Below are positions 18,032 through 59,124 of a DNA stretch of 64,000 bases, one piece after another. The position numbers and the translations under genes were made by a program. The DNA is taken from IMG/VR virus record IMGVR_UViG_2877251553_000001, positions 10,207 through 74,206 of that record. One strand, given 5' to 3'. The stretch is from a virus. Taxonomy: Duplodnaviria > Heunggongvirae > Uroviricota > Caudoviricetes. Positions within the stretch are counted from its first letter, which is position 1, and the number at the start of each line of letters is the position of its first letter. Under the pieces are notes generated by a model. That model was not told where the DNA came from. It searched no databases and was given only the letters and a program-made list of their open reading frames with translations.

Positions 18032-21000
18032 TTTGGGGATTGATGCGGCAGAGTTTAAAAATGAAATCCCCCGTATCAAAAACCTTCTGAATGGTGCAGC
18101 CAGCGATGCAGAACGATCTTCTGCCCGTATGCAGCGTTTTATGGAGCGTCAGACTCAGGCCGCCCGGCAGACAACGCAGGCGGCTTCTTCGGCTGCAACA
18201 GCCGCATCCGTCCATGCGCAGACGGTGGAGAAGAACGCACAGGCTCATGAACGCATGGCCCGCGAGGTGGAGAAAACCCGCCAGCGCATGGAGGCGCTGA
18301 GCCAGAAAATGCGCGAGGAACAGGCGCAGGCCATGGCTCTGGCGGAGGCTCAGGATAAAACAGCTGCTGCGTTTTATCGTCAGATTGACAGTGTGAAACA
18401 GGCCAGTGCGGGGCTGCAGGAATTACAGCGTATTCAGCAGCAGATCCGACAGGCCAGAAACAGTGGCGGGATTGGTCAGCAGGATTATCTGGCGCTGATT
18501 TCTGAGGTTACGGCGAAAACCCGTGTTCTTACGCAGGCTGAGGAAGAGTCTACCCGACAGAAAGTGGCGTTTATCCGTCAGCTTAAAGAGCAGGCAACCC
18601 GCCAGAATCTTTCTTCTTCTGAGTTGCTTCGTGCCAGGGCTGCCCAGCTGGGGGTAAGCAGTGCTGCAGAAGTGTATATCCGCAAAATGGAGCAGGCAGG
18701 AAAAGCCACGCATTCGCTGGGTCTGAAAAGTGCAGCAGCCCGCCAGGAGATAGGCGTTCTGATAGGTGAACTGGCCCGTGGCAATTTAGGAGCGCTGAGG
18801 GGATCCGGGATAACGCTGGCTAACCGTGCCGGATGGATAGACACACTGATGTCACCGAAAGGCATGATGCTGGGCGGGGTTATTGGCGGTATTGCCGCGG
18901 CCGTCTATGGTCTGGGTAAAGCCTGGTATGACGGTCAGAAGGAGGGGGAAGAATTTAACCGCCAGCTGTCACTGACGGGGCATTATGCCGGAGTCACTGC
19001 CGGGCAGCTGTGGACGCTCAGTCGTGCTATTTCCGGGAATGGTATCACGCAACATGCTGCAGCCGGTGCGCTGGCTCAGGTGGTGGGGAGTGGTGCATTT
19101 CGTGGAAACGATATCGGTATGGTGGCGAGAGCTGCCGCACAGATGGAGCGATCGGTTGGCCAGTCGGTCAGCGATACCATAAATCAGTTTAAGCGGCTGA
19201 AGGATGATCCTGTAAATGCCGCGAAGGCTCTGGACAATGAGCTGCATTTTCTTACTGCCACTCAGCTTGAGCAGATACGCGTCCTTGGGGATCAGGGGCG
19301 GTCCAGTGATGCTGCACGGATAGCCATGTCTGCACTGGCAGAGGAAACCGGTCGGCGTACTGCGGATATTGATAATAACCTCAATGCGCTGGGCAGTACG
19401 CTGAAGTATCTGTCTGATTTATGGAATCGTTTCTGGGATGCGGCCATGAATATTGGTCGTGAAGACTCGCTGGATGAACAGATTGCCGCTTTACAGGAGA
19501 AAGTGTCGCGGGCGAAAAGACTCCCCTGGACGGCATCATCTTCTCAGGTTGAATACGATCAGCAGCGTCTTAACGATCTTCAGGAGAAAAAACGCCAGAA
19601 GGATTTGCAGGATGCAAAAGAGCAGGCAGAGCGGAATTATCAGGAGCAACAGAAACGCCGTAATGCTGAAAATGCTGCACTGAACCGGATGAATGAAACG
19701 GAAGCTGCACGACATCAGCGTGAAATTGCGCGTATTAATGCCATGCAGTACGCCGATCAGGCTGTCAGGGATGCGGCGATACAACGTGAAAATGAACGTT
19801 ACGAGAAAGCCCTGGCATCCGGTAAGAAAAAAACACGCGAAACCCGTAATGATGAGGCCACCCGGTTATTGCTGCAGTACAGTCAGCAACAGGCACAGGT
19901 GGAAGGACAGATTGCTGCTGCCAGACAGTCAGCAGGCATTGCCACGGAAAGGATGACAGAAGCGCATAAACAGCTTCTGGCTCTGCAGCAGCGCATCAGC
20001 GACCTGGACGGGAAAAAACTGACGGCAGATGAAAAGAGTGTGCTGGCCCGTAAAGATGAACTGATTCAGGCACTGACGCTGCTGGATGTAAAACAGCAGG
20101 AGCTTCAGAAACAGACGGCACTCAACGAGCTGAAGAAAAAAACAATTCAGCTGACCAGTCAACTGGCTGAAGAAGAGCGCGCTCAGCGTCAGCAACATGA
20201 CCTGGATATCGCCACGGTGGGTATGGGTGATCAGCAGCGACAGCGATATCAGGTACAACTGAGTCTTCGCCAGAAATACCAGCAACAGCTGGAGCAGTTG
20301 AGGCGGGATAGTGAGCAGAAAGGGACATATAACACGGATGACTACAGAAAGGCCGAGCAGGCGCTGACGGAGAGCCTGAACCGACAACTGAATGAGAATC
20401 GCCGTTACTGGCAACAGCTTGAAGTTGTGCAGGGTAACTGGAAAAACGGAGTCCTGCGTGCATTTCAGGATTTTACCGTGGATGCAGATAATACGGCAGA
20501 AACAGCAGAACAGGTGTTCTCGTCAGCCTTCAGCAACATGGGAAATGGCCTGGCAACTTTTGTCACTACCGGCAAACTCAATTTCAAATCCTTCACCTCT
20601 TCTGTGCTGTCAGATATGGCGAAAATCCTGGCGCAGGCAACCATGATGAAATCGATAAAAGGGATTGGCAGTGTACTGGGATTTGATCTCAGCAGCCTTT
20701 CCCTGAATGCCAATGGGGGGATTTATCAGTCTGCTGATTTGAGTCGTTACAGTGGCACGGTGGTTAACCGTCCGACGTTTTTTGCTTTTGCAAAAGGCGC
20801 GGGTGTGATGGGGGAAGCGGGACCTGAAGCCATTCTGCCATTGCGTCGTGGTGCTGACGGTAAGCTGGGGGTTGTGGCGGATATTGGGGGTTCAGGTATG
20901 GCGATGTTTTCCCCGCAGTACAACATCGAGATCAATAACGATGGCACGAACGGGCAGATAGGTCCGGCTGCCCTGAAGGCGGTTTATGACCTCGGGAAAA

Positions 21001-43160: not shown

Positions 43161-44752
43161 TTATTTATTGGTGAGTGCTACGTTCCATGGCAGGAGTTCG
43201 TCAACACGGTTGGAAGGCCATTCCGGCAGTACGCTCAGGATATAGCGCAGATACGCTTCCGGATCGATACCGTTCAGTCGGCAGGTGCCGATCAGCCCGT
43301 ACAGTAGCGCACCACGCTCTCCACCGTGATCGCTGCCGAAGAACATAAAGTTTTTCTTTCCGAGACAGACTGCACGAAGCGCTCTTTCCGCGGCATTATT
43401 ATCCGCCTCAGCCAGACCATCATCACTGAAGTTGCACAACGCAACCCAGTGCTTCCTGATATACCGGAACGCATCTCTCAGACGGCATTTTTTCGATAAC
43501 GTCTGTTCTTTCTCCTGCATCAGCTTATACAGGGAAGTCAGTAGCGGTTTACTCTGCATTTGCCTGACCGCCAGGCGTTCAGACACCGGCAACCCGCGTA
43601 TTTCGTGCTCGATGGCGTACAGCTCACCGATTAGTTTCAGGGCTTCTTCCGCTGTCGCGCTTTTGGTACTGATATATACATCGTGGACTTTGCGCCGCGC
43701 ATGAGCCCAGCATCCTGCTTCCGTCAACGCGCCGCCTTCTCGTTCGGCACTGAACAGCCGATCGTAACCATTAAACGCATCTGCCTGCAGGATACCCCGG
43801 AAGGGACTAAGGTGCTGCTCCGGATGTTTACCCTGATGGTCCGGTGAGTAGGCGAACCAGACCGCCGGAGGCTCTGGCGAACCGGCATTCCTGTCATCCC
43901 GGACATACGTCCAGATATATCCTGTTTTCGCCTTCTTCCTGCCCGGTGCCAGCACTTTTACTGGTGTGTCATCAGTGTGAACTTTGCGGCTGTTCATCAC
44001 ATAACGGTACAGAGCATCATTCAGCGGCGTCATTAACTGGCAGCACGCGTCAACCCAGTTGGAGAGTAATGCACGGCTCAGTTCGACACCCTGACGGGCA
44101 AAAATTTCACTCTGACGATACAGTGGCAGGTGTTCGCAGTATTTTCCCGTTAACACGCGGGCAAGTAACCCCGGGCCCGCGATACCACGCTCTATCGGAC
44201 GGGATGGTGCCGGTGCTTCAACGATGCAGTCACATTTTGTACAGGCTTTTTTTACCCGTTCTGTGCGGATCACTTTCAGAGCGCTGCTCACCAGTTCCAG
44301 TTGTTCTGCGCTGACTTCCCCAGATAATCCAGCTCACCGCCACACTCCGGGCAACAGCTTTCTTCTGGCTCCAGGCGATTTATTTCGCGGGGCAGATGCT
44401 CCGGTAACGGGCGACGATGACGAGACTGTCGCAACTGGCGGGGAACCTGCGGATCGTCTTCCCGCCCACTGTAACGATCACTGTCCTGTTCGCGTTGTTT
44501 CAGCAGGGCCTCAGCCTGTTCAACTTCACGACGCAGTTTTTCAGAACGGGTACCGAACAGCATCCGGCGCAGTTTTTCTATCTGAGCCCGCAGATGTTCT
44601 ATTTCCCGTTCATCTTCTTCGATCTTTTCTTCGGCGCGGGCCAGTGCAGAGCGCAGGAAGGCCTCCGTCTCTTCAACCAGACTCAGTTGCTGGTCTTTCT
44701 GACGGAGCTGGCATTCCAGTTCTGCAATGCGAATGAGGTATTTTTGATTCAT
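43161..44752 (-). CDS. IS66-family transposase TnpC; apparent frameshift near 44295
   Basis: Two ORFs with leucine zipper, CxxC zinc finger and DDE region typical of IS66 transposase. Confidence 0.7.
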
Positions 44753-44782
44753 GGCCGTTTTTATAATCCGGCCATGACATTT

Positions 44783-45142
44783 TTACAACATTGTCAGTGC
44801 GTTAAGGCGGGATGTTTTTGGCTGACGCCAGTCCAGCTTATCGAGGAGCATTGCCAGTTGCGAGCGGGTAATGGATACCTTGCCGTCACGCACAGCAGGC
44901 CAGATAAACTGGCCTTCCTCCAGGCGTCTGGTGAACAGGCACAGACCATCAGCATCAGCCCACAGGATTTTAATCATGTCACCCCGTCGGCCACGGAAGA
45001 TGAACAGGTGACCGGAGAAGGGATTATCATTCAGCACATGCTGTACCTGTTCACCCAGCCCGTTGAAAGACTTACGCATATCGGTTATCCCAGCAACGAG
45101 CCAGATGCGGGTGCCTGACGGGAGTGAGATCATCGTCCCCAC
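44783..45142 (-). CDS. IS66-family accessory protein TnpB
   Basis: 119-aa ORF with IS66 orf2 pattern (LPSGTRIWLVAGITDMR). Confidence 0.75.
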   Translation of the reverse strand: MGTMISLPSGTRIWLVAGITDMRKSFNGLGEQVQHVLNDNPFSGHLFIFRGRRGDMIKILWADADGLCLFTRRLEEGQFIWPAVRDGKVSITRSQLAMLLDKLDWRQPKTSRLNALTML

Positions 45143-45561
45143 CCGGTCAGTTCACGGATCAACACTGTGAGCAGCTCTGGTGAAGGATTTTCCAGCGTCA
45201 TGTTACCGTGACGGAACTCCACCTTGCAGGAGCTGGCACTAACTGTAGTCTGAGTAGATAAAGACGGAGTAAGAGCAGCCACCGGTTCTTTCGGCTCATC
45301 CGGCGTTATCTCCACAGGTAATAATTCAACGCCAGTGTCAGAAGAGGTTGTTACCGGAAGACGCCGCGATATGCGCCCTTCGTTCTGCCAGAGCCTGAGC
45401 CATTTGAACAGCAGGTTATCATTGATATCGTGTTCCCGGGCAATACGGGCAACAGAGGCTCCTGGTTGTGAAGCCAGTTTAACCATTTGAAGTTTAAACT
45501 CATTTGAAAATGATCTGCGGGTTCTGCAGATAATGCTTTCTGTTCCATAACAGGTGTCCAC
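45130..45561 (-). CDS. IS66-family accessory protein TnpA
   Basis: Small upstream ORF in IS66 arrangement. Confidence 0.6.
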   Translation of the reverse strand: MDTCYGTESIICRTRRSFSNEFKLQMVKLASQPGASVARIAREHDINDNLLFKWLRLWQNEGRISRRLPVTTSSDTGVELLPVEITPDEPKEPVAALTPSLSTQTTVSASSCKVEFRHGNMTLENPSPELLTVLIRELTGWGR

Positions 45562-45714
45562 TAGTTGAAAAGGTGGGCACCTACGTTACCAATACAGGCT
45601 TAATGGCTACATACGGCGGTCAGTTTACGCTTACACTCATATTGAAGTGGCACACTGAATTTGGCCACCTGAACAGAGGTGATATGCTCACCTCAGAACA
45701 ACACAGGTGCTCCA

Positions 45715-46958
<1,244 letters not shown>

Positions 46959-46999
46959 TGATTCTGTAACTCATATTTGCCCAACAATTCGTCCGCTTC

Positions 47000-47155
47000 C
47001 TAAATAGCTTCTGGTACGCCATTGAGCAGTGACATAACCGCGCCAATCATTAACTTGTCTCTGTTGCTGGGGCTGGCCCCTTCAAGCCAGAACCCTAAAA
47101 CAGTCTGAACCTGTTCGATGCGACATTGCGCTTCAATGAGCTGGATGTTGGTCAT
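47000..47155 (-). CDS. Small hypothetical phage protein
   Basis: 51-aa ORF, ATGA-coupled to upstream gene. Confidence 0.3.
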   Translation of the reverse strand: MTNIQLIEAQCRIEQVQTVLGFWLEGASPSNRDKLMIGAVMSLLNGVPEAI

Positions 47156-47415
47156 TTCGCACTCTCCACATCGATTAAACCGATATCTATCAGGGAGGTA
47201 ACTTTTTGTAGCCAGCTATTGATTACTGTCGCCTGTTCCCCTCCCACCGAGGGAACAATCTCATTCATCACATGAACCAGACCTGTGCGCGCTCTGGTAA
47301 GCCGTTCAGTCGCGCAATCTGCGGGAGTGAATGTGTCTGGATATGGCTCTTCACGCCCCAGCAATGATTCAATTTCCAGCTCACACGGATGACGATAAAT
47401 TAAGTTGATATTCAT
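47152..47415 (-). CDS. Hypothetical phage protein
   Basis: 87-aa ORF in a co-directional overlapping gene string. Confidence 0.35.
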   Translation of the reverse strand: MNINLIYRHPCELEIESLLGREEPYPDTFTPADCATERLTRARTGLVHVMNEIVPSVGGEQATVINSWLQKVTSLIDIGLIDVESAK

Positions 47416-47606
47416 TTTTCACCCCCAAGAATTACCAGCTCGGCACGGGCATCGTTAACCAAAGATGAGCACGCTTTAATCGCATCCACGACATCAGTAG
47501 CGTCCATTTCTTCAGCCGAAAGACTGACAGCAACCAGGACAGCCGCTGCTTGCTCGATTAATTGAAGTGCGGACGTAAGGCGAGGGGTATTAATTGAGTT
47601 ATTCAT
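47412..47606 (-). CDS. Small hypothetical phage protein
   Basis: 64-aa ORF with overlapping start and stop. Confidence 0.3.
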   Translation of the reverse strand: MNNSINTPRLTSALQLIEQAAAVLVAVSLSAEEMDATDVVDAIKACSSLVNDARAELVILGGEK

Positions 47607-47817
47607 TGGTTGCCCCCGTTTTTCCTGGCATTTCGCCACCTTCCAGCAGGAAATGAACGTCACGAACGGCGAGATCCAATATCGCGAGTAACGCCTTCAG
47701 TCTTTCGTCTCGTGAGGGAGAGTTGCTCACCAGAATGTCGTTAATCACTTCTGTCAGTGTGATGATCTGGCTTGTGCGTTCGAGGGGATCCATATGCACA
47801 TCGTAGGTTTTAATCAT
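47599..47817 (-). CDS. Small hypothetical phage protein
   Basis: 72-aa C-terminal segment of the long ORF reads as a separate coupled gene. Confidence 0.3.
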   Translation of the reverse strand: MIKTYDVHMDPLERTSQIITLTEVINDILVSNSPSRDERLKALLAILDLAVRDVHFLLEGGEMPGKTGATNE

Positions 47818-48666
47818 GTGCCACCTCCATGCGGATACGACCAGCAAAAAAGCAGATGTGATCGCGCACCAGAGAACGGCGAGCATCGCGTTCAGACTCG
47901 GCAGCAATATGATGAATTTTGGCGGTAATTGTCGGGCAATCGCGGCGAACTGCGGCGATAATCCAGATAAATTGCGGTTTTTGGGTAGGGGTAGTAGCCA
48001 GCATGTGGCAGCCTCCATTCGATAGCATGTAACGCTACCACCGGAAACGCCAATTTCGCTGGTGGTAGCCCAGACAGGGTTGGCGTAACCGGCTCGAATG
48101 GATACCGGCGCTTCCGAAGAAGCCCCTGCCTGAGCCACCATTGATTGACAAAGGCGCTGGATTATACACCAACGCCCAAAAAATGGGTGAGTCAGACCTA
48201 CGACATAAAAAAAGACGCTCGGCGCGTCATATGTCGCCATTCGATTTACCAGGACGCCAATCCCGGCACCCGTTTTATGAGGTGCCTTATAACCATAAAC
48301 CGTGTTGCCGCATAACGGCAAGCTCTTTTTTATGGACTCCGAAAACTCACTATTGGAAGAACCAGAAGCACAGTACATCGCGCTCATTTCGTTAACGTCA
48401 CGCGCGTGGACGAATGTTTTTGTGGAGTCACTACACGAGCTGAAGACATCATCTACGACCAGAAATTTTCTGGCGCAGCCGCTGACCTTCTCAATGCTAA
48501 TATCATCGCCCGAGATTTCTGGTATGGTTAAGGCATCCGTTCCGACCACAAGCAAATGATAAACTTTGCTTGTATCTGCTGTATTAATGCCTGACTTTGC
48601 CGTCATATTTCTGGATTTTGGCGACATGCCAGCCAGTGAAAATGTCTTCTTCTGGACGGGTATCAT
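47810..48666 (-). CDS. Hypothetical phage protein, probably frameshifted near 48000
   Basis: Long ORF changes to low-complexity sequence mid-way; alternative frame 47810-48028 continues. Confidence 0.3.
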
Positions 48667-48842
48667 TGGTTAACCTCCGCGAACTCCTTCATGAAACGCG
48701 CCAGCGGTTGTACGCATGGCGATTGATACCCGTCGCGATAAAACGTCACTCGGTTGTGAGACACGCTTTCGACAGTAACGAGTGCTCCGTGGGCATCTTT
48801 GTAGCGTTTTTGTGGTTGTGGTGTTCCTGTTGGCTTAGACAT
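48663..48842 (-). CDS. Small hypothetical phage protein
   Basis: 59-aa ORF overlapping the antirepressor stop. Confidence 0.3.
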   Translation of the reverse strand: MSKPTGTPQPQKRYKDAHGALVTVESVSHNRVTFYRDGYQSPCVQPLARFMKEFAEVNQ

Positions 48843-49668
48843 TGAGCGCCTCCAGACGCTTGGCGAGCCAGCGTTGCGACAGGCGGGTGAGTTCTCCTTT
48901 GCGCTGCTCATATTCCATGCCCATATCAATTAACGTGATATTGGTGCTTTCGAGATATGAGAGGTGCTCAAGCTGTTCTGCGTTCATATGGTCGCGAGGT
49001 TCGCCAGAATAGCCATTTATCCGCGCCCACTGCTTAGCAGTTAGCCCACCAAGAACGATACGAGAAATCATATTGCTCTCGTTTGTGTAGTGGTGTTGCT
49101 GCGTCGTTTTCCCCATCTCGGCACGGGCCATATTCAGCGCATCGCACATTGGCTTAAAGTTGTTTGCGGCACTGATACGGGCTTTTAGCTGGCGACGATA
49201 GCGTGCGGCGATTTCAGGCACGCTACGCTGTAATTCTTCCTCGCACTGGATGAAATAACGGCGGATAGCGTGACCCTGATCATTGCGTTCGATCATTGCC
49301 AGTTCTTTCGCCATTCCGACACTTAACAGATAGTCTTTGCCGGGTCTGCCAGACTGCTTAATCTTGCTGTAAGCCGCGCCATTCGGGCTTTTCCCCAAAT
49401 TTGGGGAAATTGTTTTATGGACTGAGTAATCGTGCCCAATGGTGAAGTCATATTCAGAGATGCGATCAGTGATCCATGTAGAGAAGTCTTTTCCCACGCC
49501 CAACGCTTTGTGTAACGCTTTTGCGCTAACAATATTGGTTTCACGCCCACCGATATGACCAGGAATAACCGGGACAATTGCGGCAAATTCATTACCGTTA
49601 ATTGTGCTCAGAGAGGCGTTCAGATGAGGGGCGGCCTCAGAAATTAATCTGCTTTTTTCGATGTTCAT
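48835..49668 (-). CDS. Phage antirepressor-like regulatory protein
   Basis: 277 aa; overall resemblance to phage antirepressor proteins, not motif-verified. Confidence 0.45.
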   Translation of the reverse strand: MNIEKSRLISEAAPHLNASLSTINGNEFAAIVPVIPGHIGGRETNIVSAKALHKALGVGKDFSTWITDRISEYDFTIGHDYSVHKTISPNLGKSPNGAAYSKIKQSGRPGKDYLLSVGMAKELAMIERNDQGHAIRRYFIQCEEELQRSVPEIAARYRRQLKARISAANNFKPMCDALNMARAEMGKTTQQHHYTNESNMISRIVLGGLTAKQWARINGYSGEPRDHMNAEQLEHLSYLESTNITLIDMGMEYEQRKGELTRLSQRWLAKRLEALNV

Positions 49669-49788
49669 TTTCAGTCTCCGTTAAGCGGCGTTAAACGCGT
49701 CCGGGTAGAGTTTCAGAATGTCGGCAATTTCCTGCTGAGAAAGTCCGTTGTGATCATTTATGTTCGCAAGATGGTTAATATGAAGTGG

Positions 49789-51059
<1,271 letters not shown>

Positions 51060-51063
<4 letters not shown>

Positions 51064-51950
51064 TGCCACTGCTGGATAAGCTGCGTAAGCTGTACGGGGT
51101 CGGACCGGTATGCAGTGAACTGCATATTGCCCCGTCAACGTATTACCACTGTCAGCAACAGCGACATCATCCGGATAAACGCAGTGCCCGTGCGCAGCGC
51201 GATGACTGGCTGAAGAAAGAGATACTGCGCGTATACGATGGGAATCATCAGGTATACGGTGTGTGTAAAGTCTGGCGTCAGTTGTTACGGGAAGGTATCA
51301 GAGTGGCCAGATGCACTGTGGCACGTCTCATGGCGGTTATGGGACTTGCCGGTGTTCTCCGGGGTAAAAAGGTCCGTACGACCATCAGCCGGAAAGCCGT
51401 TGCCGCAGGCGACCGCGTAAACCGTCAGTTCGTGGCAGAACGACCTGACCAGCTGTGGGTGGCTGATTTTACTTACGTCAGCACATGGCAGGGCTTCGTC
51501 TATGTGGCGTTCATCATTGATGTGTTTGCCGGATACATCGTGGGGTGGCGGGTCTCATCGTCCATGGAAACGACATTCGTGCTGGATGCTCTGGAGCAGG
51601 CGTTATGGGCCCGTCGACCGTCCGGCACGGTCCATCACAGTGATAAAGGTTCTCAGTATGTATCGCTGGCCTACACACAGCGGCTTAAGGAAGCCGGATT
51701 ACTGGCATCAACAGGAAGTACAGGCGACTCGTATGACAACGCGATGGCGGAGAGCATCAATGGTCTTTACAAAGCGGAGGTAATACACCGTAAGAGCTGG
51801 AAAAACCGTGCAGAAGTGGAACTGGCCACACTCACGTGGGTGGACTGGTATAATAATCGACGATTGCTGGAAAGGCTGGGCCATACTCCTCCGGCAGAAG
51901 CAGAAAAAGCTTATTATGCTTCCATCGGAAACGATGATCTGGCAGCCTGA
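51060..51950 (+). CDS. IS629 transposase OrfB
   Basis: DDE transposase of IS3 family matching IS629 OrfB. Confidence 0.85.
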
Positions 51951-51962
51951 GTTCACAGATAA

Positions 51963-52270
<308 letters not shown>

Positions 52271-52342
52271 TGGAGCACCTGTGTTGTTCTGAGGTGAGCA
52301 TATCACCTCTGTTCAGGTGGCCAAATTCAGTGTGCCACTTCA

Positions 52343-52858
52343 GAACCAGACGTTCGCTCCTACAGCACCAAATCAGGTCTGGGTGGCGGACCTGACGTAT
52401 GTTGCCACACAGGAGGGATGGTTGTACCTCGCTGGCATCAAAGATGTTTATACGTGCGAAATTGTCGGCTACGCCATGGGAGAGCGCATGACAAAAGAGC
52501 TGACAGGTAAAGCCCTGTTTATGGCGCTCAGGAGCCAGCGCCCACCTGCCGGGCTAATCCACCACTCTGATCGAGGTTCACAGTACTGCGCATACGATTA
52601 CCGGGTCATACAGGAGCAGTCTGGTCTGAAAACATCAATGTCGCGTAAAGGTAACTGTTACGACAACGCTCCGATGGAAAGCTTCTGGGGAACGCTGAAA
52701 AATGAGAGCCTGAGCCACTATCGTTTTAATAACCGGGATGAAGCCATCTCAGTAATACGGGAATACATTGAGATTTTCTACAATCGTCAGCGTCGTCACT
52801 CTCGTCTGGGGAATATCTCCCGGCAGCCTTCAGGGAAAAATATCATCAGATGGCTGCT
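52343..52858 (+). pseudogene. IS3-family transposase OrfB fragment, 5' truncated by IS911
   Basis: DDE-type sequence starting at the IS911 boundary; C-terminus frameshifted at a C run. Confidence 0.6.
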
Positions 52859-52929
52859 TAAAAAAAGAACAAATGGTAGTGTCCGCTATTGCCAGTACAC
52901 CTCACCGGGTGGCATGGATAAACCCGGAA

Positions 52930-53376
52930 GAGAGTAAATCAAACCGCGCAATTGGCGTTGCGCTGAATGATACTGCATGTCGCGTATTGAAAAAACAAAT
53001 CGGGAATCATCACCGTTGGGTATTTGTGTATAAGGAAAGCTGTACCAAACCAGACGGAACGAAAGCGCCAACAGTCAGGAAGATGCGGTATGACGCAAAC
53101 ACAGCCTGGAAAGCGGCGCTGAGACGAGCAGGTATTGATGATTTCAGATTTCACGACTTGAGACACACCTGGGCAAGTTGGCTGGTTCAAGCCGGAGTCC
53201 CGTTATCAGTGTTACAGGAAATGGGAGGCTGGGAGTCTATCGAAATGGTTCGTCGATATGCTCACCTCGCACCTAATCACCTTACCGAACACGCACGGCA
53301 AATAGACTCGATTCTGAACCCATCGGTCCCAAATTTGTCCCAGTCAAGAAATAAGGAACGTACTAATGATGTGTAA
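52930..53376 (+). pseudogene. Tyrosine integrase C-terminal fragment (phage Int / Xer type)
   Basis: Catalytic HDLRHT and RYAHL motifs present; no N-terminal domain; start approximate. Confidence 0.6.
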
Positions 53377-53463
53377 CTTATTGATTTAAATGGATAATAG
53401 GAACAATACACATAGGCGATAAGCTTTGTTTTTGTTGCCTTTTTTATTGTTCATTTTTTATAG

Positions 53464-53485
53464 ATACCCCCAAAAGTACCCCCAT
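53464..53485 (-). repeat. 22-bp element, right copy of the inverted pair with 38595-38616
   Basis: Reverse complement reads ATGGGGGTACTTTTGGGGGTAT; about 85 bp downstream of the integrase fragment. Confidence 0.5.
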
Positions 53486-53603
53486 ATCTTTTTCCGCCCC
53501 TGAAATTTGGTTGTTATTCATACAGCATATCAGGCGGTAACGCTCTCCCTTTAACCCACTTATTGTATGATAGTGCTATCCCACAATAAGGAATCAGCCA
53601 GCC

Positions 53604-53963
53604 ATGAGAATGACCAGTCGCAAAAAAGAGATACTTAGCTACTTTGAACCGGATAACCTCGAATGGGTGACTGGTGAGATTGGTGCGCCGCCGTTCGATG
53701 TGTCGGGTGTGGCCTACCTGCTTCATGGCATGGTGTCGTTCGATAAGCGTCACCAGCTCGAATCAACCCGGCGCACACTGGAAAGCATGGTTGCTGGTGG
53801 ACTGCTTGAGCGGGTGACAGTGTATGAATCGCGCCAGATACGGCGCGGCGGTGATACTAACGCAACGGTCGTGCGCTACGGTTTACCCGGTCAGTGCGCT
53901 GTTATGCGCGATACTGGCGGCGCTGACAACGCAATATCAGGTGAATACATGCGGGTCAGTTAA
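53604..53963 (+). CDS. Hypothetical prophage protein
   Basis: 119-aa ORF, no family assigned. Confidence 0.4.
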   Translation: MRMTSRKKEILSYFEPDNLEWVTGEIGAPPFDVSGVAYLLHGMVSFDKRHQLESTRRTLESMVAGGLLERVTVYESRQIRRGGDTNATVVRYGLPGQCAVMRDTGGADNAISGEYMRVS

Positions 53964-54498
53964 TAGCCTGCAATCTGTCGTTGATGCGGCTCAGGTCGTA
54001 AACCCGGCGTTCAATATCCAGCATCAGGAAATTGTGGATCTCGGCCTGCTCAGGATTATCAGACTCTCTGGCCTGTAATAGCAATTCATTGTAACCATGC
54101 AAGCCGCCTGAGTTTTCCGCCGGGGTGGTGCCTTTCCCACGCAGGCAGCTAATGGGCTGATTACTCGTATCGTGTGTTTGCTTCTCCAGCACAATGACGC
54201 AATCCCACCAGTCGCCAAAGTCATACGTGTAAACCAGCTTGTCACCCTCATTCTGGAGCGCCGCCCATAGTGGCGTGATTGCCGCGTTACCCATGCTTTC
54301 ATCCTCACCCCATACGCGATACTCGCTACCTGGATCACCTTTACGCCCTTTCTCGAACATATACAGGTGTTCGTCATTCCAGCCAAAAGCTAACTGGATC
54401 ACGGCATGAAGTTTACTAAAGGGGATTTGCTCTGGAACCAGCACACGCCGCCATATAGGTGGTTTGCTGTCTCGGATGGTTATCTTTAGCTGGTACAT
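53956..54498 (-). CDS. pRiA4b ORF-3-like family protein
   Basis: N-terminus MYQLKITIRDSKPPIWRRVLVP resembles this family's signature. Confidence 0.5.
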   Translation of the reverse strand: MYQLKITIRDSKPPIWRRVLVPEQIPFSKLHAVIQLAFGWNDEHLYMFEKGRKGDPGSEYRVWGEDESMGNAAITPLWAALQNEGDKLVYTYDFGDWWDCVIVLEKQTHDTSNQPISCLRGKGTTPAENSGGLHGYNELLLQARESDNPEQAEIHNFLMLDIERRVYDLSRINDRLQAIN

Positions 54499-54618
54499 GC
54501 AAATCCTGAATAAATGCGAATCGGAAGGATAACGATACTGACGTACTCACAATTCTGTAAAGGTGAATAAAGGAAATTTGCTTAATACGCATAAGGTACA
54601 TGTGGAATAATCCCATAT

Positions 54619-54804
54619 CTACCTGCGCGGCGCTGGCTTCTTCCACTGGTAGGCAGGTGCTCGCATCATTTCGCGGAACCTGTCGCGCCGGGCTATATCG
54701 GCATTAACTGATCGTTCTATCTCCCGTTGATCTGCCTGTGTAAGCTGGTGGCCTCCGTGCTCAAGTTTGGCGATGGTCAATAAGGCTATTTCGCGTGGTG
54801 TCAT
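54619..54804 (-). CDS. Small hypothetical protein
   Basis: 61-aa ORF. Confidence 0.3.
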   Translation of the reverse strand: MTPREIALLTIAKLEHGGHQLTQADQREIERSVNADIARRDRFREMMRAPAYQWKKPAPRR

Positions 54805-55101
54805 ACGTCATACCCTCTGGAAGGATGAAACACGCCCGGATTAAATTTCATTTTTCGCGGGTATAAAAAAACGATGGGGCGGGCAGTCCCGGATAGTCAG
54901 GGCTGTAGAGATTTGACTACCCCCTCCCCACTGGATTCAGGTTACTGCTATTCCGTTAAGCGCTGCTTACGGGGATAGCTGCGTTGTGATTTTGACCATT
55001 CAGGTCGCCGCTATTTCCTCACCGATTGGGTGCTACGCGCGCGCGTACTTGTCCCGAAATACCAGAAACCGCCAGCCAGAGGATGATTTCCCTCTGGTGG
55101 T

Positions 55102-55383
55102 CTACCTTTGCCTCTTGCCGCCATTTAACCGGAAGGCGTTACCGTTCGGTTGCGCTATCCCCATGCGGTGTTGCGTTTCGGTAACAGCTTTATGCAGGTC
55201 GCCAAATTCCTCAACCTTCACGGGCGGGCGCTTCACGTTCTCCAGACACGTTTCACGGCGGCGCTTTATCCATTCCCGATCATCGTCCTCGGTGCATAAC
55301 AGCATGACTTCCATCCATCGTGCGGCAGCTCTCCGGTATAGCCCTTTTGACTCCAGCTCTTCAGCTTTCCTGTCCCTTATCAT
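55102..55383 (-). CDS. PerC-family transcriptional activator-like protein
   Basis: 93 aa with AEELESKGLYRRAAARW motif. Confidence 0.55.
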   Translation of the reverse strand: MIRDRKAEELESKGLYRRAAARWMEVMLLCTEDDDREWIKRRRETCLENVKRPPVKVEEFGDLHKAVTETQHRMGIAQPNGNAFRLNGGKRQR

Positions 55384-55420
55384 TTCTGCCTCTCAGATTA
55401 TATAGATAAGCAAAAAGGTG

Positions 55421-55540
55421 TTGGTTCAGTTGGTTCAGTTGGTTCAATTTGTAAAGATCGTTGTTTTTATTATGTTTTTCTAAAATATTGAACCAACATC
55501 AACTCATTTTGAACCAACACAGCCCAGCTCTGAACCAACA
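55421..55540. promoter_or_regulatory. Iteron-like repeat array in a divergent intergenic region
   Basis: Three tandem TTGGTTCA(G/A) units at 55421-55447, AT-rich spacer, then three TGAACCAACA units at 55489-55540 spaced 21 bp apart. Confidence 0.55.
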
Positions 55541-55641
55541 ACACAGCGATAGCTTTGTGATTGGTCCGTTATTTTCTGGCTGATATTTGAGCGTATAACA
55601 GTGTTATACAGTGGTATACTGTATGGATATTACTCACTGAT

Positions 55642-56097
55642 ATGGTCTTTGCAATGAGCAAATCTAATCTGATCGCGTTCCGCATCCCATCTGAATTGCA
55701 GGATGAGTTTAATCGGTCTGTTCTCGCTTCTGGAGGGGATAAAACCTCCTGGCTTGTTGATGCGATTCGCATGAAGCTGGGACAGCCGGAAAAGTCTATT
55801 GATTCACGAATGCTTGGGCTGGTGGAGCGCATGGAAAAAGCCGCTGCGTCGCTTATTGCCGGAAAGCCGAACATCCCACCAAAGCCATATAACGAAACGG
55901 CAGTTATAAAGATCATTGCCGATACCATCCAACAGGGATTTGATAATGGGCGTGTGATAGCTGAACGGATCAATGAAGCAGGCTATCAAACAAAAGCTGG
56001 TAAAGCGTGGGATAAAGATATTTACAGCGCGTGGAAGCGTCAGGGAAGCAATGCTGAAAATTTAAAAGCGGTGATTGATTGTAAGGTCAGCGTATAA
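55642..56097 (+). CDS. Hypothetical regulatory / DNA-binding protein
   Basis: 151-aa ORF immediately downstream of the repeat array. Confidence 0.4.
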   Translation: MVFAMSKSNLIAFRIPSELQDEFNRSVLASGGDKTSWLVDAIRMKLGQPEKSIDSRMLGLVERMEKAAASLIAGKPNIPPKPYNETAVIKIIADTIQQGFDNGRVIAERINEAGYQTKAGKAWDKDIYSAWKRQGSNAENLKAVIDCKVSV

Positions 56098-56188
56098 ACA
56101 TGAGTGCCCATTGGAAAGTAAGCGTACAGCCTGAACCGTCTGGTCAGAATCTGACGAATTAGACAAAGTGGTGTCCACCAAATAAGTA

Positions 56189-56590
56189 GTGGGAACCAAA
56201 GTGTCAGATATGCAGAAAAATGTGAATCCCGGCAGGCGAAAAGGCTGCCCTAATTATCCTCCCGAATTTAAACAGCAGCTCGTTGCTGCCTCCTGTGAAC
56301 CCGGGATATCCATCTCAAAACTTGCTCTTGAAAATGGCATTAACGCCAATCTGTTGTTCAAATGGCGACAACAATGGCGCGAGGGAAAGCTGCTATTACC
56401 TTCTTCAGAGAGCCCCCAGCTACTTCCTGTGACTCTCGATGCAGCTGCCGAACAGCCAGAATCGCTCGCAGAGGATCCGGAAACCCTCAGTATCAGCTGT
56501 GAGGTAACGTTCCGGCACGGGACGCTCCGCTTCAATGGCAATGTCAGCGAAAAGCTCCTGACTCTGCTGATACAGGAACTGAAGCGATGA
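56189..56590 (+). CDS. IS66-family accessory protein TnpA
   Basis: First ORF of IS66 unit. Confidence 0.65.
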   Translation: MGTKVSDMQKNVNPGRRKGCPNYPPEFKQQLVAASCEPGISISKLALENGINANLLFKWRQQWREGKLLLPSSESPQLLPVTLDAAAEQPESLAEDPETLSISCEVTFRHGTLRFNGNVSEKLLTLLIQELKR

Positions 56591-56934
56591 TCCCGTTACC
56601 TTCCGGGACCAAAATTTGGCTGGTTGCCGGTATCACCGATATGAGAAATGGCTTCAACGGCCTGGCGGCAAAGGTGCAGACGACGCTGAAAGACGATCCG
56701 ATGTCAGGTCACGTTTTTATCTTCCGTGGGCGTAATGGCAGTCAGGTAAAGCTCCTCTGGTCTACCGGCGATGGACTGTGTCTGCTGACCAAACGGCTGG
56801 AGCGCGGCCGCTTCGCCTGGCCGTCAGCCCGGGATGGCAAAGTGTTCCTCACACCGGCACAGCTGGCGATGCTCCTTGAAGGTATCGACTGGCGGCAGCC
56901 TAAAAGACTGCTTACGTCCCTGACTATGTTGTAA
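56587..56934 (+). CDS. IS66-family accessory protein TnpB
   Basis: 115 aa with LPSGTKIWLVAGITDMR pattern. Confidence 0.75.
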   Translation: MIPLPSGTKIWLVAGITDMRNGFNGLAAKVQTTLKDDPMSGHVFIFRGRNGSQVKLLWSTGDGLCLLTKRLERGRFAWPSARDGKVFLTPAQLAMLLEGIDWRQPKRLLTSLTML

Positions 56935-56982
56935 GCCTCTTTATCCTGGTCGACGCTGAATGAGCCTGGTAATATACCCGGT

Positions 56983-58520
56983 ATGAGCAGCTCACTTCCT
57001 GACGATATCAATGCACTGAAACGTCTCCTTGCCGAACAGGAGGCGCTGAACCGTGCCCTGCTGGAAAAGCTGAACGAGCGTGAACGCGAAATAGACCATC
57101 TGCAGGCACAGCTGGATAAGCTGCGCCGGATGAACTTCGGCAGCCGCTCCGAAAAAGTCTCCCGTCGTATCGCACAGATGGAAGCTGACCTGAAGGCACT
57201 TCAGAAAGAAAGTGATACCCTTACCGGTCGGGTTGACGACCCGGCCGTGCAGCGCCCGCTGCGTCAAACCCGCACCCGCAAACCGTTCCCCGAATCACTC
57301 CCCCGCGATGAAAAACGGCTGCTGCCGGCAGCGTCATGCTGCCCGGAATGTGGAGGCTCACTGAGCTATCCGGGTGAGGATGCCGCCGAACAGCTGGAGT
57401 TGATGCGCAGCGTCTTCCGGGTTATCCGGACTGTACGTGAAAAGCATGCCTGTACTCAGTGCGATGCCATCGTGCAGGCCCCGCGCCTTCACGGCCCATC
57501 GAGCGGGGTATCGCAGGACCGGGGCTGCTGGCCCGCGTGCTGATCTCAAAGTATGCAGAGCACACCCCGCTGTACCGCCAGTCTGAAATGTACGGCCGCC
57601 AGGGCGTGGAGCTGAGTCGTTCACTGCTGTCGGGCTGGGTGGATGCATGCTGCCGGCTACTGTCACCGCTGGAAGAAGCGCTTCAGGACTATGTGCTGAC
57701 TGACGGTAAGCTCCATGCTGATGACACGCCTGTCCCGGTGCTGTTACCAGGCAATAAGAAAACGAAGACCGGGCGGTTATGGACCTACGTTCGTGACGAC
57801 CGTAACGCCGGGTCAACGCTGGCGCCGGCGGTGTGGTTCGCTTACAGCCCGGACAGAAAAGGCATCCATCCGCAGACCCATCTTGCGGGGTTCAGTGGTG
57901 TACTGCAGGCGGATGCATACGCCGGGTTCAACGAGCTGTACCGGGATGGCCGGATAACGGAAGCCGCCTGTTGGGCTCACGCCCGCCGTAAAATCCACGA
58001 TGTGCACGTTCGCACCCCGTCAGCCCTGACGGAGGAAGCGCTGAAACGGATCGGCGAACTGTACGCCATCGAGGCAGAGATAAGGGGAATGACGGCGGAG
58101 CAGCGCCTTGCCGAACGTCAGTTGAAAACGAAACCGCTGCTGAAATCCCTGGAAAGCTGGCTGCGTGAAAAGATGAAAACCCTGTCGCGACACTCAGAAC
58201 TGGCGAAAGCGTTCGCATACGCCCTGAACCAGTGGCCGGCGCTGACGTACTATGCAGATGATGGCTGGGCTGAGGCGGACAATAACATCGCTGAAAATGC
58301 GTTGCGGATGGTCAGTCTGGGCCGCAAAAACTACCTGTTCTTCGGTTCGGATCATGGAGGAGAGCGGGGAGCGCTGCTGTACAGCCTGATCGGGACGTGC
58401 AAACTGAACGGAGTGGAGCCAGAAAGCTACCTCCGCTATGTACTTGACGTCATAGCCGACTGGCCGATAAACCGGGTCGGCGAACTGCTCCCCTGGCGCG
58501 TAGCACTGCCGACTGAATAA
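56983..58520 (+). CDS. IS66-family transposase TnpC; apparent frameshift near 57480
   Basis: Two overlapping ORFs together give IS66 transposase with zinc finger and DDE region. Confidence 0.7.
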
Positions 58521-58557
58521 CACATCCCCGTCAATACGGTTCTTGCTGCACGCTTAC

Positions 58558-59124
58558 AAAAAAGCGGGTTTTCACCCGTCAGAATCTGGCGGGGATCCGT
58601 CAGTAAAATCAAAACATGATCCGTCAGATAAAAAACCTTCTCGTCCGGACGCTTCGCAACCGGACACGCAGACGGCTGAACAGGATTTTTTAACTCGCCA
58701 TCCTGATGCGGTTGTATTCAGCCCTAAAAAGCGCCAGTGGGGGACGCAGGATGATTTGACCTGCGCACAGTGGCTCTGGAAAAAAATCATCGCCCTGTAC
58801 GAGCAGGCTGCCGAATGTGACGGCGAGGTGGTTCGTCCCAAAGAACCGAACTGGACAGCCTGGGCAAACGAAATTCGCCTGATGTGTGTACAGGATGGCC
58901 GTACTCACAAACAAATCTGCGAGATGTACAGCCGCGTCAGCCGCGATCCGTTCTGGTGCCGTAACGTGCTCAGCCCGTCGAAGTTGCGGGAAAAATGGGA
59001 TGAGCTTTCCCTGCGCTTATCGCCGTCCGTCAGCACGCACACAGAAAAACGTGAAGACCCGTACTTCAAAGCCAGTTACGACAACGTGGACTACAGCCAG
59101 ATCCCGGCAGGATTCAGGGGGTGA
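58558..59124 (+). pseudogene. Phage early/replication-region gene, 5' end removed by IS66
   Basis: Open frame begins at the IS66 boundary; function not assigned. Confidence 0.4.

What the first reader, a model, noticed from the sequence alone, without database searches (positions are those of the whole stretch)
55421..55540. Iteron-like array: three direct TTGGTTCA units facing three TGAACCAACA units
The two repeat sets are reverse complements of each other, separated by an AT-rich spacer, with the second set spaced at 21 bp (two helical turns). The array lies between divergent genes, one a PerC-like regulator and the other a putative DNA-binding protein. This looks like an operator or origin-type binding array.
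Basis: seen in the sequence. Interest (0 to 1): 0.55.

Follow-up and report, generated by a model that had tools for sequence, protein, structure and literature searches.

The report
Orphaned satellite (PICI) replication-origin iteron array
The repeat array is real and is one unit of the replication origin of a phage-satellite island (PICI). In intact relatives the island's own primase-helicase most likely binds it, but in this window that gene has been lost to insertion sequences, so the array is an ordinary relic.

Summary
Three tandem GTTGGTTCA units (55420-55446) face three TGAACCAAC units spaced 21 bp apart (55489-55540), across a 42-bp spacer of about 18-22% G+C. The array lies between a PerC-family gene and a 147/151-aa gene.

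The "operator bound by the 55642-56097 product" half does not.

Intact relatives include a 12-kb circular E. coli element, a chromosomal copy next to yagU, and a 16-kb Klebsiella capsid-encoding satellite. They carry the same 9-mer array directly after the stop codon of a TOPRIM-DUF927 primase-helicase gene. Several also carry a second, inverted unit either adjacent or 1.9-8.8 kb away. The window's array is that second unit.

Across 80 primase relatives the repeat sits in the same place, but its sequence changes in step with a ~20-aa C-terminal segment of the primase. The architecture matches published SaPI and Gram-negative PICI origins, and the two-site layout recalls P4 ori/crr.

The 151-aa protein's homologs occur with other iteron types and often without iterons. 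They always carry their own 10-bp-period repeat, which here lies at 55593-55625.

The window holds no primase: IS elements removed it. The array is a new member of a known kind, and interest is low to moderate.

The parts
55420..55446 (+). Three contiguous GTTGGTTCA iterons with a 9-bp period. This is the PerC-proximal set.
   Evidence: The set is near-invariant in position across 8 copies from 7 genera, with single substitutions in the third iteron in four of them.
55447..55488 (.). AT-rich 42-bp spacer (ATTTGTAAAGATCGTTGTTTTTATTATGTTTTTCTAAAATAT), the presumed DNA-unwinding region.
   Evidence: G+C is 17.5-22.5% in 40-nt windows. The stretch that reads ATTTGTAAA on the window + strand (it appears as TTTACAAAT in the alignment, which shows the - strand) is conserved in all relatives.
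55489..55540 (-). Three iterons in the opposite orientation (TGAACCAAC on the + strand) at 55489, 55510 and 55531, with a 21-bp period.
   Evidence: The iterons are conserved while the 12-nt stretches between them vary freely among genera.
55102..55383 (-). PerC-family gene. Its start codon lies 36 nt from the first iteron. It is an accessory gene of the satellite.
   Evidence: Pfam PerC, E 3.7e-30. PerC homologs lie downstream of the origin in many related elements and in EcCICFT073. PMC6092414 notes PerC variants in E. coli PICIs.
55654..56097 (+). Gene for a 147-aa protein (151 aa if read from 55642). Its N-terminus looks ribbon-helix-helix-like and its C-terminal domain is confidently predicted but unmatched. 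It is satellite cargo, not the iteron binder.
55593..55625 (+). Repeat with a 10-bp period (GTATAACAGT GTTATACAGT GGTATACTGT ATG) just upstream of the 147-aa gene. It is probably that gene's own operator and promoter, and is separate from the iterons.
   Evidence: TRF period 10. An equivalent repeat lies upstream of all 15 homologs examined and changes with the protein subfamily.
53374..56117 (.). Right-end accessory module of the satellite, comprising the 119-aa gene, pRiA4b-ORF3, the 61-aa gene, PerC, the iteron unit and the 147-aa gene. It is 99.7% identical to a chromosomal copy next to yagU in E. coli SWHEFF_68.
   Evidence: The same genes sit downstream of the primase in many relatives.
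56118..58557 (+). IS66-family element, ISEc8-like by its terminal match. It cuts the satellite off and joins it to a truncated lambdoid O-like replication gene.
   Evidence: Homology to L001 stops at 56118. The ends read GTAAGCG...CGCTTAC, and the 8-bp flanks differ, so there is no target duplication. The O-like C-terminal fragment matches phrog_391 at E 9e-84.
46891..49791 (-). Remnant of the satellite's early region (Ash-family and AntA-family genes and others). An IS3-family element cuts it at the point corresponding to L003 position 3193, about 560 bp before the primase gene starts in the intact element.
   Evidence: No primase homolog exists anywhere in the window (tblastn).

Best explanation
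The array is one unit of the replication origin of a phage-inducible chromosomal island (PICI, a P4-like satellite) of Enterobacterales. I call it "unit B", the unit distal to the primase gene.

In an intact element the satellite's Pri-Rep protein has three parts: an N-terminal zinc-ribbon/Toprim primase, a DUF927 helicase related to SaPI Rep, and a C-terminal DNA-binding segment. I infer that the C-terminal segment recognises the 9-bp iteron GTTGGTTCA. I further infer, by analogy with SaPI Rep, that Pri-Rep assembles on the two oppositely oriented iteron sets, melts the AT-rich spacer between them, loads itself as the helicase and primes synthesis.

Unit B is a mirror-image paralogue of "unit A", which starts 27-51 nt after the primase stop codon. 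In some elements the two units are contiguous. In others, cargo genes of 1.9-8.8 kb separate them, which recalls the P4 ori/crr pair.

In this window, IS elements have removed the primase gene and unit A. The array is therefore an orphan cis site. It should be inert unless a Pri-Rep of the same specificity is supplied in trans.
For: What is shown:
- Intact relatives carry the same 9-mer array directly 3' of a TOPRIM-DUF927 gene, plus a second inverted copy that corresponds to the window's array. In L003 the arrays are at 6540-6650 and 8436-8556. In L001 they are at 19810-19899 and 12371-12491. The Klebsiella element L004 has 11 copies, at 5507-5784.
- Most of the 80 primase relatives (43-100% identity) have 4-12 copies of an 8-mer within 700 bp after the stop codon. 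There are 13 different iteron classes.
- The iteron class tracks a ~20-aa C-terminal segment of the primase. All 35 GTTGGTTC-class proteins listed carry G[YF]QRKS-PR[IV]x-[GK]RQx[NR]V[YV]V. L003 and L011 are 87% identical over the preceding 155 aa but only 65% identical in this segment, and their iterons differ. L003 and L043 are 63% and 90% identical over the same two regions, and their iterons are the same.
- The unit architecture is conserved. Unit A reads '>9>9>51<11<21<' and unit B reads '>21>21>51<9<9<'. The two are adjacent in about 10 loci and split in 8.
- In 8 unit-B copies from 7 genera the iterons are conserved (a few carry single substitutions) and the inter-iteron spacers are free to vary.
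- The primase's DUF927 region matches solved SaPI-type helicases, with 8tch at E 1e-11.

What comes from published work:
- SaPI origins have 6-12 iterons just 3' of rep, an AT-rich centre, at least 2 iterons on each side in opposite directions, and are bound by the Rep C-terminal winged helix (PMC9371898).
- The validated EcCICFT073 origin has the same layout with a different iteron.
- The P4 record annotates crr directly 3' of the alpha gene and ori 4.7 kb away between divergent genes, both with the same type-1 repeats.
Against: - No binding or replication experiment exists for this iteron and primase lineage. Binding by the C-terminal segment is inferred from covariation only.
- The AlphaFold model of the primase was poor (mean pLDDT 54, C-terminal domain below 50), so a winged-helix fold could not be confirmed.
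- Unit B is not directly 3' of the primase gene. Many relatives have only unit A. Unit B may therefore be dispensable or have an auxiliary or regulatory role.
- In the window the cognate protein is absent, so no function in this genome is demonstrated.
Confidence: 0.8

Rival explanations
1. One reading: the array is an operator for the divergent PerC and 147-aa genes, bound by the 55642-56097 product.
For: The array lies between the two divergent genes. The protein's N-terminus resembles a ribbon-helix-helix motif, and one public source names a homolog "Arc-like DNA binding domain protein". In 7 of 15 loci the iterons lie upstream of the homolog.
Against: - Eight of 15 homologs have none of their element's iterons within 330 bp upstream.
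- Homologs about 65% identical occur in elements whose iterons are GACACACT or GTCGGTTC.
- The Klebsiella element keeps the array, and a tblastn of the phage collection, which holds the Klebsiella phage record carrying that segment, found no homolog.
- The same array also follows the primase gene, far from this protein.
- The protein has its own conserved repeat, which covaries with its subfamily, at 55593-55625.
Confidence: 0.05
2. Pri-Rep binds the array, but unit B is not an origin. It would act as an auxiliary or regulatory site, for example a crr-like enhancer of initiation at unit A, a handcuffing or copy-control site, or a Pri-dependent switch for the adjacent PerC gene.
For: - Many relatives replicate with unit A alone, or would have to.
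- P4 needs two separated iteron regions, ori and crr (and my own knowledge of P4).
- The tandem iterons end 36 nt from the PerC start codon, and no consensus sigma-70 promoter was found for PerC.
Against: Unit B has the full minimal origin anatomy on its own, with 3+3 opposed iterons around an AT-rich core. It is nearly a mirror copy of unit A. Nothing in the sequence separates "origin" from "auxiliary site".
Confidence: 0.13
3. The repeats are arm-type sites for the integrase or excisionase, or a packaging (cos/pac, TerS) site of the satellite.
For: Short repeats in both orientations near the end of an integrative element could in principle be arm sites. P4 has such arm repeats near int.
Against: - The integrases of L003 and L004 are only 27% identical, yet their iterons are identical.
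- The repeat covaries with the primase C-terminus.
- The main copy sits at the primase stop codon, not at the att site.
Confidence: 0.01
4. The array is a chance or slippage-generated simple repeat with no function.
For: None, beyond the fact that the first three units form a perfect tandem.
Against: Six copies fall in 120 bp against two in the other 64 kb. Position and orientation are conserved across 7 genera while the spacers vary. A blastn of the array finds a match in 565 of 5426 E. coli genomes.
Confidence: 0.01

Closest known systems
Replication origins of SaPIs and Gram-negative PICIs (Ubeda et al.; Fillol-Salom et al. 2018, PMC6092414; Qiao et al. 2022, PMC9371898)
   Same: Short iterons lie in two oppositely oriented sets around an AT-rich centre, 6-12 copies in all, next to the pri-rep gene. 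The helicase part of the cognate protein (DUF927) is sequence-related to SaPI-type Rep helicases (8tch, E 1e-11). PerC is carried as an accessory gene, as in EcCICFT073.
   Different: The iteron is a 9-mer (GTTGGTTCA), where SaPI iterons are 5-6 nt and the EcCICFT073 iteron is TGTCTACC. The EcCICFT073 primase belongs to a different family (D5_N/DUF5906/Pox_D5, 584 aa). The window's array is a second, inverted unit that cargo genes can separate from the primase by kilobases.
Satellite phage P4 ori and crr with alpha protein
   Same: Two cis regions carry the same short iterons in both orientations. One lies directly 3' of the primase-helicase gene (crr, like unit A). The other lies kilobases away between divergent genes (ori, like unit B). 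The N-terminal zinc-ribbon/Toprim primase domain is homologous (33% identity, E 4e-42).
   Different: The helicase and origin-binding part is unrelated by sequence: DUF927 here, D5_N/DUF5906/Pox_D5 in alpha. The iteron differs from P4's type-1 repeat (TGTTCACC, from my own knowledge). In this family the second unit is optional and is often contiguous with the first.
Iteron-type plasmid origins (RepA/Pi/TrfA class)
   Same: Repeated initiator-binding sites sit beside an AT-rich unwinding element.
   Different: Plasmid iterons are typically 17-22 bp direct repeats bound by a dedicated winged-helix Rep that recruits host DnaB (my own knowledge). Here the repeats are 9-mers in opposed sets, bound (by inference) by a self-loading primase-helicase. 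No Rep_3-type gene is present.

Membership tests
SaPI / Gram-negative PICI replication origin | Two sets of short iterons in opposite orientation flanking an AT-rich region, 6-12 iterons in all. | tested here: met
   There are 3+3 iterons around a 42-bp spacer of about 18-22% G+C. The definition comes from PMC9371898 and PMC6092414.
SaPI / Gram-negative PICI replication origin | Located immediately 3' of the pri-rep gene. | tested here: not met
   The window has no primase. In intact relatives unit A meets this feature, starting 27-51 nt after the stop codon. The window's unit B is either contiguous with unit A or 1.9-8.8 kb further on. The array is therefore part of such an origin region, not the canonical unit.
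SaPI / Gram-negative PICI replication origin | Iterons are specific to the element's own Rep, through its C-terminal DNA-binding domain. | tested here: met
   This is met by covariation only. Thirteen iteron classes track a ~20-aa C-terminal segment of the primase. Physical binding was not tested. The structure model of the C-terminal domain was inconclusive.
SaPI / Gram-negative PICI replication origin | Supports pri-rep-dependent autonomous replication. | not testable with these tools
   This needs the plasmid-maintenance assay used for EcCICFT073.
SaPI / Gram-negative PICI replication origin | Resides in a PICI: int, regulator, pri-rep, accessory or interference genes, 10-20 kb. | tested here: met
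   Intact relatives are L003 (a 12.2-kb circle with int, antA, icd-like, TOPRIM-DUF927 and PerC) and L004 (a 16-kb circle with int, alpA, DUF927, capsid and terminase genes). The window holds IS-broken pieces of such an element.
P4 ori/crr system | Two separated cis regions share the same iteron, one of them directly 3' of the primase-helicase gene. | tested here: met
   L003, L001, L070, L074, L023, L021, L015 and L038 show this layout.
P4 ori/crr system | Alpha-type protein with a D5_N / DUF5906 / Pox_D5 helicase and origin-binding part, and the type-1 iteron TGTTCACC. | tested here: not met
   Only the N-terminal primase domain is shared. The helicase region is DUF927. The iteron is GTTGGTTCA.
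P4 ori/crr system | Both regions are required in cis for replication. | not testable with these tools
   Many relatives have unit A only, which argues that unit B is not universally required.
Ribbon-helix-helix repressor operator (Arc/Mnt/omega-like) for the 147-aa protein | The repeat array accompanies the regulator gene and covaries with it. | tested here: not met
   Eight of 15 homologs lack their element's iterons upstream. Homologs coexist with unrelated iteron classes. A different repeat (55593-55625) accompanies all 15.

The most novel reading that the evidence does not exclude
The two mirror-image origin units (A at the primase stop codon, B kilobases away) may form a genuinely bipartite, P4-like origin, with the interval between them serving as a preferred bay for accessory genes. 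The cargo seen between them here includes the 147-aa gene, other hypothetical genes and P22-type ejection genes (L001), while PerC lies just outside unit B. An orphan unit B such as this one could still be fired in trans by a co-resident or incoming satellite of the same GTTGGTTCA specificity, amplifying the neighbouring PerC locus in situ. A blastn of the array finds a match in about 10% of complete E. coli genomes.
Probability: 0.25. Interest if true: 0.5.

Novelty: new member of a known kind. Interest (0 to 1): 0.3.

Why it matters
For this window it explains an unannotated, highly regular repeat as a relic of satellite replication, not a new regulatory device. It also redirects the proposed experiment to the right protein: the primase-helicase, not the neighbouring 147-aa protein.

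More generally, the comparison yields three things.
- A 13-class table pairs iteron sequence with a ~20-aa primase segment in the TOPRIM-DUF927 Pri-Rep family. This is a ready hypothesis for the specificity determinant and a possible source of orthogonal replicons.
- These satellites often carry a second, inverted origin unit that can be separated from the first by cargo genes.
- The array matches sequence in about 10% of complete E. coli genomes and carried no annotated feature in any of the 12 hits listed. At least two "plasmid" records are excised satellites.

Tried and rejected
- A consensus promoter and terminator scan of 55000-56200 found nothing. The PerC and 147-aa promoters remain undefined.
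- Rfam at a permissive threshold gave only two sub-threshold hits to a plant microRNA hairpin family (21-22 bits against a gathering score of 180). These reflect the inverted repeat and I rejected them.
- The 40-aa ORF at 55461-55583 reads LNQH-type repeats straight off the iterons. I do not consider it a gene.
- The 147-aa protein has no Pfam match even at E 10, apart from an insignificant HTH_62 hit. It has no PDB profile match. Its AlphaFold model has a confident C-terminal domain but no Foldseek PDB hit with E below 1. A ribbon-helix-helix fold is therefore not demonstrated.
- The AlphaFold model of the 711-aa DUF927 primase was too poor for fold comparison (pLDDT 54), so no fold search was run on it.
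- A tblastn of the 147-aa protein against the phage collection gave no match.
- One literature search for P4 crr returned a paper that uses crr only as a cosmid part. I used the annotated P4 record instead.
- I considered and rejected integrase arm sites, DnaA or LexA boxes (by eye, no match) and a partition site (no partner ATPase; covariation is with the primase).

Full report
**1. The observation**

GTTGGTTCA is repeated three times head to tail at 55420, 55429 and 55438. TRF reports period 9, 3.0 copies and 100% matches. After a 42-bp spacer, its reverse complement TGAACCAAC occurs at 55489, 55510 and 55531, 21 bp apart.

The 8-mer TTGGTTCA has only two other matches in the 64-kb window. 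The cluster of six in 120 bp is therefore far beyond chance (my own Poisson estimate). The spacer drops to 17.5-22.5% G+C.

On the left is a PerC-family gene at 55102-55383 on the - strand (PF06069, E 3.7e-30). On the right is an ORF of 151 aa. Alignment with its homologs suggests it is more likely 147 aa, starting at 55654.

**2. Where the window's sequence comes from**

The 1.1 kb around the array is 99-100% identical to chromosomal sequence in 115 complete E. coli genomes. In strain SWHEFF_68 (L001) it lies next to yagU. There it is in a block that continues to a TOPRIM-DUF927 primase gene and an Ash-family gene.

A 12,152-bp circular record filed as an E. coli plasmid (NZ_CP148430, L003) is the same kind of element in excised form. 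It carries int, antA, DUF4222, an icd-like gene, the TOPRIM-DUF927 primase, a small ORF, the 147-aa gene, PerC, and then int again as the circle closes.

The repeat region alone also matches a 16-kb circular Klebsiella "plasmid" (L004) at 76% identity, and a segment of the record "Klebsiella phage P12620-1" (L002). L004 encodes int, AlpA, an antirepressor, an icd-like protein, a DUF927 protein, and capsid, portal, protease and terminase genes. That is a capsid-encoding PICI-type satellite.

The window itself holds only broken pieces.
- 53374-56117 is the satellite's right-hand accessory module.
- 46891-49791 is part of its early region, cut by an IS3-family element at the point corresponding to L003 position 3193. 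The primase gene starts at 3758 in L003.
- An IS66-family element (56118-58557, with no target-site duplication) joins the module to a truncated lambdoid O-like gene.
- No primase homolog exists anywhere in the window.

**3. The same array sits at the primase stop codon**

In L003 the 9-mer occurs 12 times, in two clusters. Unit A (6540-6650) starts 27 nt after the primase stop codon. Unit B (8436-8556) is the counterpart of the window's array.

The two units share about 55 nt almost exactly: AAAAGGT, three tandem iterons, then ATTTGTAAAGATCGTTGTTTT. They lie in inverted orientation, flanking a small ORF and the 147-aa gene. L001 has the same pair, 7.3 kb apart. In the Klebsiella element, 11 copies form one continuous array directly 3' of the DUF927 gene, and its distal half is the part homologous to the window.

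**4. Comparative test**

A scan of one genome per species found 80 loci encoding relatives of the primase, at 43-100% identity, across Enterobacterales plus two Avibacterium genomes.

In most of them, the 700 bp after the stop codon holds 4-12 copies of one 8-mer in both orientations. The 8-mer differs between lineages. The classes are GTTGGTTC (35 loci), GTCGGTTC (8), GTTGTCTC (8), TAACCCGT (4), and TAACCCAC, GACACACT, GTCGGTTT, TACCCGAC, GTCGGGTC, TTGTACCA, CGTGGTTC and others.

The class follows a ~20-aa segment near the primase C-terminus.
- All 35 GTTGGTTC-class proteins listed read G[YF]QRKS-PR[IV]x-[GK]RQx[NR]V[YV]V.
- Five GTTGTCTC proteins read GYQGRV--RE[DG]-GRQIRVY[VM], although they are about 80% identical overall to the E. 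coli protein.
- L003 against L011: 87% identity in the preceding 155 aa, 65% in the segment, different iterons.
- L003 against L043: 63% and 90% over the same regions, same iterons.

This is the pattern expected if that segment reads the iteron.

The architecture is also conserved. Unit A is '>9>9>51<11<21<' and unit B is '>21>21>51<9<9<'. They are contiguous in about ten loci and separated by 1.9-8.8 kb in eight. An alignment of eight unit-B copies from seven genera keeps the iterons and the stretch TTTACAAATTGAACC conserved, apart from a few single substitutions in individual iterons. The 12-nt inter-iteron stretches vary freely.

**5. Mechanism**

The primase has an N-terminal zinc ribbon and Toprim domain homologous to that of P4 alpha (33% identity, E 4e-42). 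It also has a DUF927 region that matches solved SaPI-type Rep helicases (8tch, E 1e-11; 5dgk) (Pfam domains).

Two published descriptions bear on the anatomy.
- SaPI Rep proteins are self-loading helicases whose C-terminal winged helix binds 6-12 iterons just 3' of rep. An AT-rich centre separates iteron sets that point in opposite directions (PMC9371898).
[quoted passage not shown] For EcCICFT073, both pri-rep and ori are needed for plasmid replication (PMC6092414).

I checked the EcCICFT073 origin directly. It has the same layout, but with TGTCTACC iterons and a primase of the D5_N/DUF5906 type.

My inference is that Pri-Rep binds the opposed iteron sets, opens the 42-bp spacer, loads and primes. 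Binding and melting are inferred, not shown. My structure model of the primase was too poor to confirm a winged helix (pLDDT 54). Its predicted secondary structure does place the covarying segment in a β-hairpin after two helices.

**6. What unit B adds**

The annotated P4 genome offers a precedent. Its crr lies directly 3' of the alpha gene and its ori lies 4.7 kb away between divergent genes. Both carry the same type-1 repeats in both orientations.

Unit A and unit B mirror that layout. Many relatives carry unit A alone, however, so unit B is not universally needed. It may be a second origin, an auxiliary site, or the distal half of a composite origin into which cargo has been inserted. The sequence cannot decide between these.

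**7.

Homologs of the 147-aa protein occur in 15 of the fetched loci. Eight have none of their element's iterons within 330 bp upstream. Several of these sit in elements whose iterons are GACACACT, GTCGGTTC or TTGTACCA.

All 15 carry a repeat with a 10-bp period overlapping a -10-like hexamer. This repeat changes with the protein subfamily: TGTATAAC/TGTTATAC, TGTCTTAC or GTTTAC. In the window it is 55593-55625.

The iterons are therefore not this protein's operator. Its DNA-binding nature remains a reasonable guess only. Integrase arm sites are also excluded: the E. coli and Klebsiella elements share the iteron, but their integrases are only 27% identical.

**8. Verdict**

The array is real, conserved and functional in kind. 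It is a PICI-type origin unit specific to a TOPRIM-DUF927 Pri-Rep.

In this window it is an orphan left by IS-mediated decay. It belongs to a known class of origin, with a previously uncatalogued iteron and primase lineage and a P4-like two-site arrangement. A blastn of the array finds a match in 565 of 5426 complete E. coli genomes, with a median of two places per genome, and none of the 12 listed hits overlaps an annotated feature.

Noticed in passing
window 55593-55625: A repeat with a 10-bp period (GTATAACAGT GTTATACAGT GGTATACTGT) lies directly upstream of the 147-aa gene. An equivalent repeat precedes all 15 homologs and changes with the protein subfamily. It is probably an autoregulatory operator and promoter. 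The copy in L003 has one repeat fewer.
   Followed up: partly
L003 (NZ_CP148430, 12,152 bp) and L004 (NZ_CP069874, 15,995 bp): Two records filed as small non-mobilizable plasmids have the gene content of excised phage satellites: int, antirepressor, icd-like and a DUF927 primase. L004 also has AlpA and capsid, portal and terminase genes. No plasmid replication gene is annotated. They are most likely circular PICIs caught in the assemblies.
   Followed up: partly
L002 (PQ569648, Klebsiella phage P12620-1, record 95970-106087): This 106.5-kb "phage genome" contains a segment with the same gene order and the same pattern of iteron positions as the 16-kb Klebsiella satellite L004 (capsid, protease, portal, DUF927 primase, iteron array). 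The record may therefore include a satellite, or a satellite concatemer.
   Followed up: no
window 56118-58557 and 58558-59124: An IS66-family element (ISEc8-like) has ends GTAAGCG...CGCTTAC and non-matching 8-bp flanks (ATTGGAAA against AAAAAAGC). It joins the satellite remnant to the C-terminal two-thirds of a lambdoid O-like replication initiator (phrog_391). The listed ORF start at 58543 lies inside the IS.
   Followed up: partly
window 43161-53376: This is a dense patch of IS66- and IS3-family transposase genes. It includes a C-terminal fragment of a tyrosine integrase (52768-53376) and a satellite early-region remnant (46891-49791) that now lies on the wrong side of the accessory module compared with L001. 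That implies IS-mediated rearrangement or tandem elements.
   Followed up: partly
L003 3758-6514; L085 4636-6969: The TOPRIM-DUF927 primase is a chimera in family terms. Its first ~340 aa are homologous to the P4 alpha primase domain. Its helicase region is of the SaPI Rep type (DUF927), not the D5_N/DUF5906/Pox_D5 type found in P4 alpha and EcCICFT073 Pri.
   Followed up: partly
L001 14504-19162: In the chromosomal E. coli copy, the interval between the two origin units holds P22-type DNA ejection and injection protein genes and a DUF2824 gene. This is phage-derived cargo inside the satellite.
   Followed up: no
L077 and L082 (Citrobacter, Avibacterium): Distant primase relatives with different 8-mers (GAAACCGT, TGCGTCTA) have a second cluster of the same 8-mer about 10 kb upstream of the primase. 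This may be another two-site arrangement, or a neighbouring element. I did not examine it.
   Followed up: no
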